A stretch of DNA of 64,000 bases from Candidatus Moranbacteria bacterium GW2011_GWC2_40_12 (lineage in GTDB: Bacteria; Patescibacteriota; Minisyncoccia; Moranbacterales; UBA11712): NCBI GenBank assembly GCA_000995965.1, contig LBYD01000001.1:76923-140922 (forward strand), written 5' to 3'. A model generated the notes under the pieces. The model was not told the origin of the DNA and did no database searches. It was given only the letters and a program-made list of their open reading frames with translations. The translations under genes and the position numbers were made by a program. Positions 2,804 through 56,837 of this stretch are shown here, piece after piece; position 1 is the first letter of the stretch; every line of letters begins with the position of its first letter.

Positions 2804-3352
2804 TTATTTTTGCACAATAAATTTGGCCGCGTCGAGCAGGTCTTCGGCGATATATTCTACGTCCGTCTTGTGCTTTTCATCCGAGCCGCCCTTACCCGTT
2901 TTGACGAGGATTGATCTGATCCCGAAATTTTTTCCGCACTTCACGTCGGCCCATTTGTCTCCGATCATCCAGGAATTCGCATTGTCAATTTCAAAATCTT
3001 TTTCGGCCTGTTCAAGCATTCCAGGAGCAGGCTTTCGGCAATTTGAAGTTTTCTTGTATTTTCCAATTCCTTCGGGATGGTAGGGGGAAAAGTATGTTTT
3101 CAGAATTTCTATTCCGTTTTTTTTGAGTTCTTTTTCAACGTGGTTGTTGAAATTCCAAAAATCTTTCTCCGCATAATAGCCCCGGCCGATGCCTGACTGG
3201 TTGGTGATGATAATGAAATGAAATCCGTTTTGTTCAAGAATTTTCAGGCCGGGAATCACGTTTTTTTCAAATTCAAAATCTTCTATTTTATAAACATAAT
3301 TATGGTCGACATTGATCACCCCGTCGCGGTCGAGGAAAATTATTTTTTTCAT
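2804..3352 (-). CDS. gmhB: D-glycero-D-manno-heptose 1,7-bisphosphate phosphatase (HAD superfamily)
   Basis: HAD motif I is IIFLDRDGVIN. NCRKPAPGM and GDKWADVKCG are the GmhB/histidinol-phosphatase-like motifs. Confidence 0.75.
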   Translation of the reverse strand: MKKIIFLDRDGVINVDHNYVYKIEDFEFEKNVIPGLKILEQNGFHFIIITNQSGIGRGYYAEKDFWNFNNHVEKELKKNGIEILKTYFSPYHPEGIGKYKKTSNCRKPAPGMLEQAEKDFEIDNANSWMIGDKWADVKCGKNFGIRSILVKTGKGGSDEKHKTDVEYIAEDLLDAAKFIVQK

Positions 3353-3397
3353 AAGTTATCTGAAATTCAATGCCGGGGGAACCCCAACATTGAAAGT

Positions 3398-6005: not shown

Positions 6006-6938
6006 CTATTTGTTATTGTTTTTCTGAAACCACTCGTATGTTTTCCTAATTCCCGTTTTGAAGTCGGTTTTTGGCGTCCATCTAAAATTCTCTTTTATTT
6101 TCGCGTAGGAAAGGCAGCTGGTTTTTTGCTCGCCGATTTTGGCTGGTCCGTGAACTTCTTTGAATTTTTTTCCGAAATACTTGTTTATTTCTCGGAATAT
6201 GCCGTTTACACTCGTTTCTTTGCCGGTGCTGGCATTATATATTCCTACTTTGTCGAATTTTTCAAGCGCCTGCAGATTTGCCGAAGTTATATCGTCAATG
6301 AAAATGAAGTCCCTCGTTTGTTTTCCACTTCCGTTGATTACGGGTTGCTTTCCATTCATCATCATGTGGAGAAAAATCGCAATTACATTTACTTCTCCAT
6401 GGGGGTTTTGCCGCGGTCCATACACATTCGGATAGCGAAGAGCGGCAAATTTCAGCCCGTGGACCTTGTTGGCATAATGCAAGAATTTTTCAACGGAAAG
6501 CTTTCCAACTCCGTAGGGAGAGACGGGCCAAGGCTCGACGGTTTCCGGAGTGGGGAGGACGCGCGTGTCGCCGTAGAGGGCACCGCCGGTTGACGAAAAT
6601 ATGAATTTTTTGACTTTGTATCGGCAGGCGAGTTCAATAAGATTCATGCTTGCCAAAATATTATTATTCCCTTCGAAAAGGGGATCGGCGACGGATTTTC
6701 GAAGGTCTATTTGCGCCGCGAGATGGAAAATGACCTCCGGTTTTTCTTTTTTGACGGTAGCTTCAGTTTTTTTGTGATTGGTGAGGTCAGCTTTGAAAAA
6801 TTTTGCCTCGGGATTGATATTTTTCTCAAATCCGGTGGAAAGATTATCAATCACCAAAACCCGATGCTTCTTTTCAACAAGAGCATCGACCAGATGCGAA
6901 CCAATGAATCCCGCGCCTCCCGTGACCAAGATTTTCAT
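6006..6938 (-). CDS. NAD-dependent sugar-nucleotide epimerase/dehydratase (extended SDR; GalE/UXS-like, HldD-like not excluded)
   Basis: The Rossmann motif VTGGAGFIGSHL is present. The catalytic YGVGK (YxxxK) and NVYGPRQ motifs are present. Confidence 0.8.
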   Translation of the reverse strand: MKILVTGGAGFIGSHLVDALVEKKHRVLVIDNLSTGFEKNINPEAKFFKADLTNHKKTEATVKKEKPEVIFHLAAQIDLRKSVADPLFEGNNNILASMNLIELACRYKVKKFIFSSTGGALYGDTRVLPTPETVEPWPVSPYGVGKLSVEKFLHYANKVHGLKFAALRYPNVYGPRQNPHGEVNVIAIFLHMMMNGKQPVINGSGKQTRDFIFIDDITSANLQALEKFDKVGIYNASTGKETSVNGIFREINKYFGKKFKEVHGPAKIGEQKTSCLSYAKIKENFRWTPKTDFKTGIRKTYEWFQKNNNK

Positions 6939-33360: not shown

Positions 33361-33508
33361 ATGTTTTTAATGCTGGTTAATTTGCGCACAAAATAAAAAT
33401 AATTAGCCTTGGAGGCATCATTCACGAGTATACTATAAAAAAATATTTATGGCAAAACAAATCGAGACATAAAATAATACGCGCCCAGGGAGATGTCCTT
33501 GGGCGCGG

Positions 33509-36091
33509 TTACGGCCTGGCTTGCAGGCTGTTGATTTTTTGGATTAAGTCCTGAATTTCGCTAAGAAGCACGGCAGGCGTTGTGTTCAATCTTTTGGCCG
33601 CTGCTATGCCAATTTTTAATTTTTCAAATCCGAGTATTGCAAGCAGTCTTATCTCAGATGGCTTTAGACGCTTGATCACTCCAGCGATTTCCGGTCTGAC
33701 GCCGTTCTTTTTCGGGTCTTTTTTTTCAAGCCTAAATTGAACAGCTCCAGAAAACTCGGGATCAAGGATTAAAGTATTGTCGTCTGCGAGCAACATAGGT
33801 TGCCACTTCTTGTTAATGCTCGGCGACCTTTCCGGTGGGACGCGAGGAATCGGCATTTCGGCTGCCGGAATAACCGGAGGCTCAATCGGGAAAATCGGCG
33901 TGCCGATCTCCGAAAAAAGCATCACAATCACTTGAGGCGGTTGGCCAAAAATAAACCTCCTTTCGCCGTCATTCCTTGTGTATGAGGTGCGAAGCGGCGG
34001 AACGCGCGGAACACGTATTTTGTCTTTCAGGATAACCGGAGGCTCAATCGGAAAAATCGGCGTGCCGATCTCCGAAAAAAGCATCTCGGTTATTCTTGGA
34101 GGATCACCGAAGACAAACCTTTTTTCTCCGATAATTTCCGTATCAGGAGATTTAGGCTTTTTGGATATGGCATTCTCCGAAACGACTTCCTTATCCTCAA
34201 AGGGTGGGTAATACCTTGGATAGCAAGCCGGCGGGCGCCGCGGCCTCGGACGATGATCCTGCGGATGCTCGCAGAGCGGAATTACAACATCCTCCACTTT
34301 TCCCGAACGCCAGTGTTTGGCGTTAAAAATTATTTCGAAATGTTGACGGTCAGGAAACGCGGGATAGTACGGATTTGAGCCCTTTTTCCTGCGATTTCCG
34401 TTAGCCGAACCCTCATCATAAAAGGATTTCAATCTTGTGACACGGGACGGATGCCGAAGTTTGCGCAGGGCTTTGGCTTCAATCTGCCGGATGCGTTCGC
34501 GCGTGACTTCGAAATCTTTATCATGCCCGACCTCCTCCAAAGTCATATCTTTTGCTTCCCCGATGCCGAAGCGCTTGCGAAGGACTTTTTCCTCGCGCGG
34601 CGTCAATGTGGTCAGCATCTTGCGGGTTTGGTCTGCCAGATTGAGACTGGCGACTGCCTCAAATGGAGTGGAAACTTTCTCATCTTTTATGAAATCGCCC
34701 AGAAAATCATTCTCATCTTCACCGACAGGAGTTTCGAAGGATATTGGTTCCTTCGCGATTTTGAGGACTTTCAGCACTTTCTCCAAAGGAAATTCCATCT
34801 TGTCGGCGATTTCTTCGGCAGTTGGCTCTCGCCCCATTTCCTGGACCAGATACCGCGAGGTCCGGATAAGCTTATTGATGGTTTCGATCATATGGACCGG
34901 TATGCGGATGGTGCGAGCTTGATCGGCGATGGCGCGGGTAATGGCCTGCCTGATCCACCAGGTGGCATATGTGCTGAATTTGTAGCCGCGCTCGTATTCG
35001 AACTTTTCCACGGCTTTCATGAGACCGACATTGCCTTCCTGGATGAGATCCAGGAATTGAAGCCCGCGGTTGGCGTATTTCTTGGCGATGCTCACCACCA
35101 GCCGCAGATTGGCTTCTACCATTTCCCGTTTGGCCTTGTGAGCTTTATACTCGCATTTTTCCAGTTTTTCCACAGTGGCCAGCAACTGGCCAGAAGGGAG
35201 ACCGATAATCTGTTCGTATCTTCGCAGTTCGTTGCGGGTTTTATTTTGCAGGTATTTCAGCTCTTCGAATCTCTCCGGTGCTAAGCCGGCCGGCAGCAGA
35301 ATTTCTGCTTCCTGTTTGGACTTCCGGACAATGTCCCTGAGCTTTGTTTCAGATATTTTGGCACAGGCGAACGCCGCATTTTTCTTGCGGATGAGATCGC
35401 GCGCCGCGGAGGCGATCACGCGCAAATCCTCGGCGATTGCCTGAAAATAAATCGGCTCGAGACGCAGTGCTTCGAAGCGATCAGCCAGACGCCGACGGGC
35501 CGCGACAATGGACCGCTGAATTTGATCAACTTCATCGCTGTCCGGCGGAAGGACTGCCAATCTTTCGCCCAGCAGGTTAATTTTTTGATATTCCGCCAAA
35601 AATCCGGAAATAATCCAAGAATTCCTGGATTTTCGATCTGCCGGATCCGTGTTCAGGTCTTCTTCGCCGAAGTCGTCGATTTTTTCTTCAGCCTTCGACA
35701 TTTTATAATTCGTTCCGTGTTTCAAGCCTTTGACGAAGTCGGCGACATTTCTCAATGAGTAAGGAATCTCAAAGAGGGTCGAAAAAAATTCTCTCTCGCC
35801 AGCTTCAATCCGTTTGGCAATCGCGACTTCCTGCTCGCGGGTAAGAAGAAGAGGAATTTCACACATATCTTTGAGATACAGGCGAACAGGATCGTCGAAT
35901 TTCATCGAAGCTTCTGTTTCAGCGTCTTTTTCTTGAAGTAGCGGACGTTCGTTAATCTCCCCTTCCTCGTTTGTTTCGTCGGCAAGATCCGATTCATAAG
36001 ATGATGAAAGCGTCCCGAAGTCTTCTACGGGTTCTCCGTTTGACAGTTGGTCAATCATAATATCCGTGACAGAATCGTCGTCGTAAGACAT
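33509..36091 (-). CDS. rpoD: RNA polymerase sigma-70 factor RpoD with ~300-aa C-terminal extension (tandem Pro-rich repeats plus a second region-4-like HTH)
   Basis: Acidic region 1.1 and [10 protein letters not shown] region 1.2 are present. Regions 2-4 are canonical ([27 protein letters not shown]; [31 protein letters not shown]). The reading frame stays open about 300 aa further. A strong SD aaGGAGGtga lies 7 nt upstream of the ATG. Confidence 0.85.
33790..34120 (-). repeat. 2 x 162-bp in-frame tandem direct repeat within rpoD 3-prime extension
   Basis: ccggaggctcaatcgg(g/a)aaaatcggcgtgccgatctccgaaaaaagcatc occurs at about 33874 and 34036, a period of 162 bp (54 aa). It encodes ...[30 protein letters not shown]... 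and ...[30 protein letters not shown].... Confidence 0.7.
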
Positions 36092-36220
36092 TCGGGATCA
36101 CCTCCTTTCCCTTTCGGGATATTTTTTTGTCAAAGGGCAGTTGCCTGTTTAAAAAACAGAGCCCTCCTGCTCCTTTGTATAAACTAAAATATTATGCGTT
36201 TTTTGGCAAATTTACGGCTG

Positions 36221-36249
36221 AAAATAAAAAAGGCGGCCAGTAGGCCGCC
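36221..36249 (-). terminator. Rho-independent terminator for the small minus-strand gene
   Basis: On the + strand the hairpin is GGCGGCCagtaGGCCGCC, preceded by aaaataaaaaa. That gives a T-run after the hairpin on the - strand. Confidence 0.6.
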
Positions 36250-36269
36250 CGAGTCCGGGATAAAATTGA

Positions 36270-36455
36270 TTAACACGGGGATTGTTTCCCGGTCGAGGAA
36301 CAATCGGCGGTAGCGGTCGGTCTTATTCCGTTCAAAAAGTCCTTGGCTTCCTTAAGCGCCTGTTCGCTAATCACAGGCGGGCCGACTTTTTTGACTTGAG
36401 GACGACCGAACGGATGGTGTTTTTCGTGGACGTAATTTTTTCCGCTCCTTGACAT
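36270..36455 (-). CDS. Hypothetical small protein (61 aa)
   Basis: Strong SD GGGAGGAGGG lies 5 nt upstream of the ATG (MSRSGKNYVHEKHH...). A terminator follows the gene. Confidence 0.4.
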   Translation of the reverse strand: MSRSGKNYVHEKHHPFGRPQVKKVGPPVISEQALKEAKDFLNGIRPTATADCSSTGKQSPC

Positions 36456-36527
36456 GGTTTCCCTCCTCCCAAAAAATATTGAAATCATGAAACTTTAGCA
36501 CACTCCAATTGATAAGTCAATGACCGT

Positions 36528-56726: not shown

Positions 56727-56772
56727 TCCGGGATCGTCTAATGGTAGGACGCCTGACTCTGGATCAGGTAAT
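56727..56772 (+). pseudogene. tRNA-Gln 5-prime half (46 nt identical to positions 1-46 of the downstream tRNA-Gln), followed by divergent GC-rich hairpins
   Basis: TCCGGGATCGTCTAATGGTAGGACGCCTGACTCTGGATCAGGTAAT is identical to 57104..57149. No matching 3-prime acceptor strand (TCCCGGA) follows. Confidence 0.6.
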
Positions 56773-56837
56773 TGGGGTTCGCCCGATCATCCGATCGGGC
56801 GGCCGGTCGTATGACCGGCCGAATCCCTCAAACATGA

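What the first reader, a model, noticed from the sequence alone, without database searches (positions are those of the whole stretch)
33509..34450. Housekeeping sigma factor RpoD carries a ~300-aa C-terminal extension with a recent 162-bp tandem duplication and a second region-4-like helix-turn-helix
After the canonical sigma-70 end (...[14 protein letters not shown]) the ORF continues in frame. Next comes a Pro-rich linker with [14 protein letters not shown]. Then come two 54-aa tandem repeats, [30 protein letters not shown] and [30 protein letters not shown]; their DNA is about 95% identical over the 50-bp core, period 162 bp. The extension ends in [42 protein letters not shown]. That closing segment mirrors the bona fide region 4.2 of the same protein ([39 protein letters not shown]). 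An extra sigma4-like HTH appended to a primary sigma factor is not a standard architecture. It could act as an autoinhibitory anti-sigma-like module, a second DNA-reading head, or an RNAP or regulator docking domain. The near-identical DNA repeat indicates the extension is evolutionarily active.
Basis: seen in the sequence. Interest (0 to 1): 0.7.

Follow-up and report, generated by a model that had tools for sequence, protein, structure and literature searches.

The report
Sigma factor with tethered extra HTH domain
A Candidatus Moranbacteria RpoD-type sigma factor really does carry a 300-residue tail, a floppy proline-rich linker ending in a small folded sigma-region-4-like domain, and this tail belongs to a rare, undescribed module family that relatives encode fused to different sigma cores or alone at the same locus.

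Summary
ORF 33509..36091 (-) is a single 860-aa product: a complete RpoD-type sigma-70 (aa 1-560) plus a 300-aa extension. The identical protein is found on at least 24 independently assembled contigs, so it is not a frameshift artefact.

The extension has two parts:
- a roughly 200-aa Pro-rich, basic linker that is predicted disordered and holds two 54-aa repeats;

- The duplication is old, not recent. Its flanks are 58-67% identical, and only a 54-nt core (52/54) stays alike, most simply through gene conversion.
- The terminal HTH shows no sequence similarity to the protein's own region 4 (shuffle p=0.25).

New findings:
- Syntenic orthologues carry 1-5 extra sigma-4-like modules in the same place.
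- Other relatives encode the module set alone at the same locus, behind the same promoter and leader.
- One relative has an RpoH-like core there instead.
- The terminal domain has only 10 cluster representatives among 1.84 billion.

Function is untested. My best guess is a tethered auxiliary head acting next to sigma-4 at promoters. Whether this is the cell's housekeeping sigma is uncertain.

The parts
33509..36091 (-). Complete ORF, 860 aa plus stop codon: RpoD-type sigma factor with C-terminal extension
   Evidence: identical protein P0121 on at least 24 contigs
34412..36091 (-). Sigma-70 core, aa 1-560 (region 1.2 aa 67-100, region 2 aa 324-394, region 3 aa 403-479, region 4 aa 493-547, canonical tail to ...LKSFYDE)
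   Evidence: Pfam; NCBIfam RpoD equivalog NF004208 at 571 bits against a cut-off of 555; coordinates
34451..34606 (-). Genuine region 4 HTH (aa 496-547), with recognition helix [19 protein letters not shown] and a 2-aa insertion (HDKDFEV)
33797..34411 (-). Linker, aa 561-765: 17.5% Pro, pI 9.4, predicted disordered (pLDDT below 50)
   Evidence: AF2 of the whole extension; composition
34199..34375 (-). Proximal motif conserved in part of the family (aa 573-631: [44 protein letters not shown])
   Evidence: alignments with P0003, P0004 and P0135; dN 0.43 with saturated dS against L002
33959..34120 (-). 54-aa repeat, copy 1 (aa 658-711)
33797..33958 (-). 54-aa repeat, copy 2 (aa 712-765)
34031..34084 (-). 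Repeat core 1 ([18 protein letters not shown]), 52/54 nt identical to core 2
33869..33922 (-). Repeat core 2. In variant L018 the 162 nt between the two cores are lost, giving an 806-aa protein
33512..33796 (-). Folded terminal domain, aa 766-860: beta-hairpin followed by five helices; basic (pI 10)
   Evidence: AF2 pLDDT 81.9, pTM 0.66; pLDDT 75-90 within the whole-extension model; dN 0.31 / dS ~1.5 against L002; charge
33512..33694 (-). Sigma-domain-4/LuxR-like four-helix HTH part of the terminal domain (aa 800-860)
33471..33507 (-). Intrinsic terminator immediately after the stop codon (CGCGCCCA...TGGGCGCG then a T-rich run, -20.4 kcal/mol)
36092..36210 (-). Promoter-like TTGCCA-17-TAGTTT and a conserved 5' leader (AAAGGAGCAGGAGGGCTCTGTTTTTT ... 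AAAGGAGGTGATCCCGA-ATG), shared with fused, unfused and RpoH-like genes of relatives
34171..34235 (-). 65-nt segment missing in one otherwise identical contig (L001). The loss splits the gene into a 624-aa sigma (P0001) and a 191-aa ORF (P0123). Breakpoints are ambiguous by a 3-nt microhomology

Best explanation
**What it is (largely shown).** The gene encodes one 860-aa protein: a complete RpoD-type sigma-70 plus a lineage-specific tail.
- The tail is the reduced form of a rare module set, called 'X' here.
- In syntenic orthologues of related Candidatus Moranbacteria, X contains one to five extra sigma-region-4-like HTH modules plus a conserved terminal domain.
- In other relatives X is encoded alone at the same locus, behind the same promoter, leader and ribosome-binding site.
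- In the window copy the middle modules are gone. A ~200-aa proline-rich, basic, disordered linker stands in their place. The linker contains an old 54-aa duplication whose 54-nt core is kept alike, most simply by gene conversion.
- Only the ~95-aa terminal domain is folded. It is a beta-hairpin plus five helices, the last four forming a sigma-4/LuxR-like HTH. It is basic and under purifying selection.

**How it most likely works (inferred, not shown).** In the holoenzyme the C-terminus of sigma-4 sits at the upstream edge of the -35 element. The tail would therefore place a tethered, basic HTH domain within reach of upstream promoter DNA and of whatever binds there. I propose it acts as a built-in auxiliary head, analogous in logic to the alpha C-terminal domain or to an activator fused to sigma. 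It would modulate promoter affinity or choice rather than shut the sigma off.
For: **A real single product.**
- The identical 860-aa protein is on at least 24 contigs, in 32 index blocks.
- Orthologues of 896, 908, 1370 and 875 aa exist. For three of them (896, 908, 1370 aa) the gene neighbourhood was fetched and is the same: GT4, Wzy_C, GT4, sigma, LytR, GT2, S41 peptidase.
- The gene has its own terminator.

**Anatomy.**
- AF2 gives pLDDT below 50 for aa ~561-760 and 75-90 for aa 761-860.
- The terminal domain modelled alone reaches pLDDT 81.9.

**Family.**
- Relatives' extensions repeatedly give Pfam Sigma70_r4 as the best hit: 2-4 stretches per protein, with isolated modules at E 6e-4 to 0.05.

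**Selection.**
- Terminal domain dN 0.31 against dS ~1.5, compared with dN 0.12 for sigma regions 2-4.

**Stand-alone forms.**
- P0137 and P0138 lack a sigma core and sit in the same syntenic slot. P0134 also lacks a core, but its 1.8-kb contig shows no neighbouring genes; it has its own AT-rich upstream region and ribosome-binding site.
- They are homologous to the extensions (E 1e-32, 8e-21, 9e-7).
- The leader is shared up to the first 2-3 codons.

**Charge.**
- The linker has net charge +6 and the terminal domain +7 (pI ~10). This fits nucleic-acid contact better than masking of the basic sigma-4 surface.
Against: - No functional data exist for any family member.
- The predicted recognition helix ([17 protein letters not shown], net charge -1) lacks the basic and polar residues that sigma-4.2 and LuxR-type domains use to read DNA (net +5 in the genuine helix). 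A protein-binding role is therefore about as plausible as a DNA-binding one.
- The window domain gives no Pfam, PDB-sequence or hhalign match. The fold assignment rests on one AF2 model built from a 9-sequence alignment.
- The relative position of the tail and the sigma core could not be examined, because no coordinates or PAE are returned.
Confidence: 0.4

Rival explanations
1. The terminal sigma-4-like domain, and the extra modules in relatives, are protein-binding sigma-4 mimics. They would dock a partner that normally recognises sigma-4, such as the beta-flap tip, an anti-sigma or a regulator, possibly a phage-encoded sigma-4 binder. The domain would then act as a decoy, partner-switch or recruitment module rather than touching DNA.
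For: - The conserved exposed positions of the predicted recognition helix are small or hydrophobic (T-P-A-V-L-I-S), and the helix is neutral or acidic across the family.
- Fusion in some genomes and separation in others is the classic signature of physically interacting partners.
- Module number varies from 1 to about 6 among close relatives, and structural variants occur within one population. This is a fast-evolving pattern.
Against: - The domain as a whole is strongly basic (pI 10).
- No partner gene is conserved next to the locus.
- There are no PADLOC hits for the tail and no relatives in viral contigs.
Confidence: 0.25
2. The tail is an autoinhibitory, anti-sigma-like module. It would fold back on sigma-2 or sigma-4 and keep the factor inactive until a signal releases it, as C-terminal extensions do in some ECF sigma factors.
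For: - A long flexible tether allows fold-back.
- C-terminal extensions of ECF41/42-type sigma factors are known to regulate activity in cis (own knowledge; a search listed papers on ECF sigmas with C-terminal extensions, e.g. an ECF56-family sigma, titles and abstracts only).
Against: - The domain is basic, like the sigma-4 DNA-binding face it would have to mask.
- Stand-alone homologues have no sigma to inhibit in cis.
- The tail is attached to sigma cores of two different classes.
- No sensor or ligand-binding domain is detectable.
Confidence: 0.12
3. The window tail is a decaying relic. The ancestral sigma-4-like array has eroded into a disordered linker, and what remains has little or no function.
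For: - All middle modules seen in relatives are missing here.
- Two thirds of the tail is predicted disordered.
- Deletion variants of 162 nt and 65 nt exist in the same population.
Against: - The terminal domain is conserved at 45-56% identity with saturated synonymous sites (dN/dS about 0.2).
- The reading frame is intact in at least 24 assemblies and in every orthologue.
Confidence: 0.1
4. The long ORF is an assembly or sequencing artefact: a lost stop codon or frameshift between rpoD and a downstream gene, or an expanded repeat.
For: - One contig (L001) has a 65-nt deletion that yields a 624-aa sigma plus a 191-aa ORF.
- One contig (L018) has a single repeat copy.
Against: - At least 24 contigs, in 32 index blocks, encode the identical 860-aa protein; four NCBI accessions carry that sequence and two Moranbacteria MAG names are shown for it.
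- Both repeat copies have unique diverged flanks.
- Orthologues at 55-60% identity are also single long ORFs.
Confidence: 0.03

Closest known systems
ECF (group 4) sigma factors with C-terminal extensions (e.g. ECF41, ECF42, ECF44, ECF56)
   Same: A sigma-70-family protein carries an extra domain fused directly after region 4, and that domain modulates the factor in cis.
   Different: - ECF sigmas are minimal two-domain factors. This one has regions 1.2, 2, 3 and 4 and passes the RpoD equivalog model.
- Known ECF extensions are SnoaL-like, TPR or Cys-rich domains, not sigma-4-like HTHs (own knowledge).
- No homology to them was detected.
Sigma-70 domain 4 / LuxR-GerE-NarL HTH effector domains and UPF0122 (YlxM)
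   Different: - All Pfam hits are below the gathering scores, and the window domain gives none.
- The DNA-reading residues are not conserved.
- The domain carries an extra N-terminal beta-hairpin and helix.
RNA polymerase alpha-subunit C-terminal domain
   Same: The working logic is the same: a small nucleic-acid-binding domain on a flexible linker, positioned just upstream of the -35 element. This is an inferred analogy only.
   Different: The subunit and the fold differ (helix-hairpin-helix in alpha). The linker here is ten times longer. Not homologous.
PhyR sigma-factor mimicry
   Different: PhyR is a response regulator with no working sigma attached. No NepR-like partner or receiver domain is present here.
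MzaA, the sigma-70-family protein of the MZA anti-phage system
   Same: It is an atypically long sigma-70-family protein. It matches the core at 389 bits (NCBIfam) and E 3e-71 (PADLOC).
   Different: The score is far below the 800-bit cut-off. The match covers only the sigma core, the tail has no match, and no Mza partner genes are in the neighbourhood.

Membership tests
RpoD / group 1 sigma-70 | Regions 1.2, 2, 3 and 4 present in order | tested here: met
   Pfam Sigma70_r1_2, r2, r3 and r4 all score above their gathering cut-offs
RpoD / group 1 sigma-70 | Passes a curated RpoD equivalog model | tested here: met
   NF004208 at 571.1 bits against a cut-off of 555; TIGR02393 at 383.9 against 354
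RpoD / group 1 sigma-70 | Protein ends a few residues after region 4.2 | tested here: not met
   300 further residues follow ...LKSFYDE
RpoD / group 1 sigma-70 | It is the cell's essential housekeeping sigma | not testable with these tools
   It is the only sigma in the 64-kb window, and the rest of the genome is not available. Orthologous loci without a sigma core, or with an RpoH-like core, argue for caution
Sigma-70 region 4 (Pfam PF04545/PF08281), applied to the terminal domain | Sequence match at the gathering score | tested here: not met
   No hit for the window tail even at E<=10. Relatives' modules score 11.6-19.7 bits against a cut-off of 24.1
Sigma-70 region 4 (Pfam PF04545/PF08281), applied to the terminal domain | Four-helix domain-4 fold | tested here: met
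Sigma-70 region 4 (Pfam PF04545/PF08281), applied to the terminal domain | Basic and polar recognition-helix residues that read the -35 element (TRERIRQ-type) | tested here: not met
   The helix is [17 protein letters not shown], net charge -1 against +5 in the genuine helix
Sigma-70 region 4 (Pfam PF04545/PF08281), applied to the terminal domain | Detectable homology to the protein's own region 4 (internal duplication) | tested here: inconclusive
   Window domain: shuffle p=0.25 and hhalign E=0.11. Some relatives' middle modules are significant (p=0.0005 and 0.0045)
LuxR/GerE HTH (PF00196) | Sequence match at the gathering score | tested here: not met
   Only P0064's terminal domain hits, at 17.6 bits against a cut-off of 23.5; the window domain gives none
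ECF sigma factor with C-terminal extension | Two-domain (sigma-2/sigma-4) ECF core | tested here: not met
   The core has regions 1.2 and 3 and is RpoD-type
Recent tandem duplication | Near-identity over the whole repeat unit, synonymous sites included | tested here: not met
   Core 52/54 identical but flanks 21/36 and 24/36. Among amino-acid-identical codons, synonymous changes are 2 of 18 in the core against 7 of 11 in the flanks, Fisher p=0.010
Fusion/fission pair (fused in some genomes, separate in others) | The same module is encoded fused and stand-alone in related genomes | tested here: met
   Fused: window, P0002, P0003, P0004, P0064, P0133, P0135, L012. Stand-alone: P0134, P0137, P0138, L014

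The most novel reading that the evidence does not exclude
This Moranbacteria locus may be a modular 'sigma plus X' cassette. Behind one conserved promoter and leader, interchangeable sigma cores (RpoD-type, RpoH-like, or none) are joined in frame to arrays of one to six sigma-4-like modules. The extra sigma-4-like heads would serve as alternative or auxiliary promoter-reading modules, or as decoys that protect sigma-4 from anti-sigma proteins. Either way this would be a previously unknown way to diversify or safeguard promoter recognition in a minimal genome.
Probability: 0.18. Interest if true: 0.85.

Novelty: new variant of a known kind. Interest (0 to 1): 0.6.

Why it matters
Primary-type sigma factors are among the most architecturally conserved bacterial proteins, and they normally stop right after region 4.2. 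That is the surface where activators and anti-sigma proteins act.

A natural family in which this end carries a long tether with one to several extra sigma-4-like domains would be a new handle on how promoter recognition can be extended or regulated. So would the fact that the same tail occurs alone, or on a different sigma class, at the same locus. This matters especially in Candidate Phyla Radiation bacteria, whose transcriptional regulation is almost unknown.

The family also offers a compact test case (an 860-aa protein with one extra domain) for biochemistry with heterologous RNA polymerase.

Tried and rejected
- **Word-indexed homologue search with the tail alone** found nothing. Its 90%-identity cluster is represented by the truncated 624-aa variant. 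A second search with a profile of eight whole tails returned only P0138.
- **Pfam, PDB-sequence and PADLOC scans of the window tail** gave no hits.
- **hhalign and shuffle tests** of the terminal HTH against the protein's own region 4 were not significant. I therefore dropped the claim that it is a recognisable copy of region 4.2.
- **An RNA hairpin inside the repeat core**, as a reason for its nucleotide conservation, was not supported (z -1.7 to -1.9, with 5-8% of shuffles folding as well).
- **The [E.]LPLF[SE]G motif** repeated in P0002, P0134 and P0137 was considered as the equivalent of the window core ([14 protein letters not shown]), and as a possible clamp-binding-like peptide. Only a loose match exists in the window, so this was not pursued.
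- **Peptide-pattern scans** found only P0003's MAG in genome contigs and nothing in metagenome contigs or viral contigs. The first alignment I tried was too divergent to search with.
- **The afdb50 fold library** was unavailable.
- **Literature searches** for a primary sigma with a C-terminal extension in CPR, Moranbacteria or Parcubacteria found nothing relevant.
- **The leader RNA structure:** RNAalifold gives a 12-bp helix but no compensatory changes, so no structural claim is made.
Full report
**1. The observation**

The minus-strand ORF 33509..36091 encodes 860 aa. Pfam finds sigma-70 regions 1.2, 2, 3 and 4 between aa 67 and 547, and nothing beyond. The canonical tail ...[18 protein letters not shown] ends at aa 560, and the frame then runs on for 300 codons.

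The two 54-aa repeats lie at 33959-34120 and 33797-33958, with a period of 162 nt. Their 54-nt cores are 52/54 identical. A 32-nt piece of the core occurs exactly twice in the window and never in 100 shuffles. Tandem Repeats Finder does not report the array, because the whole unit is only 76% identical.

**2. Not an artefact**

The window protein is identical to P0121, which public sources name 'RNA polymerase sigma factor' of Candidatus Moranbacteria. Two MAG names are shown (GW2011_GWC1_45_18 and GWC2_40_12) and four NCBI accessions are listed for the sequence. It is recorded on at least 24 contigs in 32 index blocks, many of 0.2-1 Mb.

Two structural variants exist in otherwise identical DNA:
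- L018 lacks exactly the 162 nt between the two cores, giving an 806-aa protein.
- L001 lacks 65 nt at about 34171-34235, which splits the gene into a 624-aa sigma and a 191-aa ORF.

Each variant is on a single contig. They may be real minority alleles or assembly errors. The 860-aa form is clearly the majority. A strong terminator follows the stop codon.

**3. Anatomy of the tail**

- AF2 on the whole extension gives pLDDT below 50 for its first ~200 residues (aa ~561-760) and 75-90 for the last 100.
- The low-confidence part is 17.5% proline, has pI 9.4 and a net charge of +6.
- The terminal domain modelled alone, from a 9-sequence family alignment, reaches pLDDT 81.9 and pTM 0.66. It forms a beta-hairpin followed by five helices.

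It is not supported at sequence level:
- The tail has no Pfam or PDB-sequence hit.
- hhalign against the family's genuine region 4 gives E=0.11.
- A Smith-Waterman shuffle test against the protein's own region 4 gives p=0.25.

The predicted recognition helix is [17 protein letters not shown], with net charge -1. The genuine [18 protein letters not shown] helix has +5. The domain as a whole is nevertheless basic, with pI 10.

**4. The repeat is old, with a homogenised core**

Outside the core the two copies are 21/36 and 24/36 identical. Among codons that encode the same amino acid, 2 of 18 differ in the core against 7 of 11 in the flanks (Fisher p=0.010). This is not a recent duplication of the whole unit. 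The simplest reading is gene conversion or unequal exchange between the cores, which fits the one-copy variant whose junction lies in the core. A hairpin in the core is not significantly stable.

**5. The tail is lineage-wide and modular**

The closest relatives of the whole protein are also long: P0002 at 896 aa, P0003 at 908 aa, P0004 at 1370 aa and P0064 at 875 aa, with 55-60% identity in the core. For P0002, P0003 and P0004 the neighbourhood was fetched. They sit in the same gene order: GT4, Wzy_C, GT4, sigma, LytR, GT2, S41 peptidase, L9, CTP synthase.

Their tails share two elements with the window, the terminal domain and, in some members, the proximal motif.
- The terminal domain is 45-56% identical in P0002 and P0003, about 20% in P0064 and P0004, and 45% in the stand-alone P0134.
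- The proximal motif reads NPYYP.FPD..IIFNP.HW..VED...P.

Between these two elements the relatives carry HTH modules whose best Pfam hit is repeatedly Sigma70_r4. P0004 shows 4 stretches, P0003 shows 3, and P0002 and P0064 show 2 each. Isolated modules score E 6e-4 to 0.05, always below the gathering score. Two such modules are significantly similar to genuine region 4 in shuffle tests (p=0.0005 and 0.0045). This suggests the arrays arose by duplication of region 4.

The window copy has none of these middle modules. It is the minimal member of the family. Its terminal domain evolves under purifying selection (dN 0.31 against dS ~1.5, compared with dN 0.12 for sigma regions 2-4).

**6. Rarity**

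An exhaustive profile search of 1.84 billion cluster representatives with the terminal domain found 10 proteins at E<=1e-3 and 5 at E<=1e-10. Among GTDB species genomes, only P0003's MAG was found. Nothing was found in viral contigs.

**7. Stand-alone forms and a shared leader**

Three of the hits have no sigma core: P0134 (452 aa), P0137 (400 aa) and P0138 (643 aa).
- They are homologous to the tails: P0134 against P0002's tail E 1e-32, P0134 against the window terminal domain E 8e-21, and P0138 against P0004's tail E 9e-7.
- P0138 and P0137 sit in the same slot after GT4, Wzy_C, GT4.
- P0134 has its own AT-rich upstream region and ribosome-binding site.

The ~120 nt upstream of the fused and unfused genes are clearly homologous. 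They share TTGCCA-17-TAG(T/C)TT, then AAAGGAGCAGGAGGGCTCTGTTTTTT, then a ribosome-binding site of the form AAAGGnGGTGATC....ATG, and even the first two or three codons.

Using that leader as a DNA probe in metagenome contigs recovered further members:
- another fused RpoD-X of 820 aa (L012);
- a fused N-terminal fragment (L017);
- a more distant unfused X (L014, 652 aa);
- L015, where the same leader precedes an RpoH-like sigma. It carries the QRKLFYNLK box, and its best NCBIfam hit is rpoH at 232 bits, below the cut-off. It also continues into a tail, which is homologous to L014's C-terminal part (E 4e-11).

L015's upstream 70 nt are identical to L012, but its hairpin is of the L002 type. The locus therefore looks mosaic.

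Inference: the sigma core is an in-frame presence, absence or replacement between a conserved start and X. An internal deletion of the core from a fused ancestor is the simplest route to the unfused genes. That would imply these organisms have another sigma, so this copy may not be the housekeeping factor.

Two further points fit a horizontally acquired core, though I did not test this:
- The core passes the proteobacterial-type RpoD model NF004208 but not the SigA-type model NF006666.
- Its nearest relatives outside the family are Desulfobaccales and Thermodesulfobacteriota RpoD, at about 64% identity.

**8. Mechanism**

The following is shown:
- One polypeptide, with an intact and apparently canonical sigma core. 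Its region 4.2 helix is [19 protein letters not shown].
- A long disordered basic tether, ending in a conserved, basic sigma-4/LuxR-like domain.
- The same domain can exist on its own.

The following is inferred. Sigma-4 sits on the -35 element with its C-terminus facing upstream (established knowledge of holoenzyme structure). The tail should therefore place the extra domain near upstream promoter DNA and the region where alpha-CTD and activators act.

I favour an auxiliary head that adds DNA contacts or partner contacts and tunes promoter use (about 0.4). A protein-binding sigma-4 mimic is nearly as likely (about 0.25), because the recognition helix lacks DNA-reading residues. Autoinhibition (about 0.12) fits poorly with the basic charge and with the stand-alone forms. 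A functionless relic (about 0.1) fits poorly with the purifying selection.

**9. Comparison with the known**

C-terminal extensions are known in ECF sigma factors, but those have different cores and different extension folds. Sigma-like domains used as decoys are known from PhyR. Tethered upstream readers are known from alpha-CTD.

I found no description of a primary-type sigma with sigma-4-like C-terminal modules. The proteins are in public databases under generic names only. I therefore rate the finding as a new variant of a known kind. The interest is real but limited by the tiny, uncultivated clade and the absence of functional evidence.

Noticed in passing
window 36092-36210 (-); also L002 1270-1355, L003 1-140, L004 1290-1391, L012 ~90-224, L014 ~6055-6188, L015 ~3225-3359, L017: A conserved promoter-like TTGCCA-17-TAG(T/C)TT and 5' leader precede the gene. 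A short hairpin with AGGAGG in its loop is followed by a U-run, then by CTGCCCTTT, then by the ribosome-binding site. RNAalifold predicts a 12-bp helix (AAAGG.GCAGGAG with CUUCUGC.CCUUU) showing only one-sided changes and no compensatory pairs. This is a candidate cis-regulatory leader shared by the fused, unfused and RpoH-like genes.
   Followed up: partly
L015 3360-5014 (metagenome contig Ga0163199_1010536): At the orthologous locus and behind the same leader, the gene encodes an RpoH-like sigma (QRKLFYNLK box; best NCBIfam hit rpoH at 232 bits, below the cut-off). It also runs on into a long C-terminal tail related to the unfused protein of L014. The contig ends before the stop codon.
   Followed up: partly
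window 36270-36488 (-), with a terminator at 36231-36250: A small ORF of 72 aa (61 aa from the second Met, which has a strong ribosome-binding site) lies between the GT4 gene and the sigma promoter, followed by a strong intrinsic terminator. A gene of similar size is called at this position in L001, L018 and P0004's contig, but is absent in L002. It has no Pfam hit on record.
   Followed up: no
window 34451-34606 (-), region 4: The genuine region 4 has a 2-aa insertion in the turn before the recognition helix ([11 protein letters not shown] instead of EEVGRDFEV). P0004 shares a similar insertion.
   Followed up: no
sigma core, window 34412-36091 (-): Outside the small family, the closest cores in 5.8 billion proteins are Desulfobaccales and Thermodesulfobacteriota RpoD (~64% identity), not other Patescibacteria. 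The core passes the proteobacterial-type RpoD model but not the SigA-type one. This may point to a horizontal origin.
   Followed up: no
P0125 (ENA contig of 54,950 nt; protein of the same 90% cluster): A 590-aa protein joins the N-terminal 125 aa of a different, short sigma (MRQLKISKQITNRES...) to the window sigma at the conserved [16 protein letters not shown] stretch. It is either an assembly chimera or a recombinant.
   Followed up: no
window 56729-56794 (+): A weak Rfam tRNA match (30.9 bits, just above the gathering score of 29) that ARAGORN does not call. It lies ~300 nt upstream of tRNA-Gln.
   Followed up: no
window 33427-33455 (-): A good sigma-70-type promoter match (TTGCCA-17-TATACT, 10/12) lies in front of the LytR-family gene, directly downstream of the sigma terminator. 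It has the same -35 hexamer as the sigma gene's own promoter-like site.
   Followed up: no
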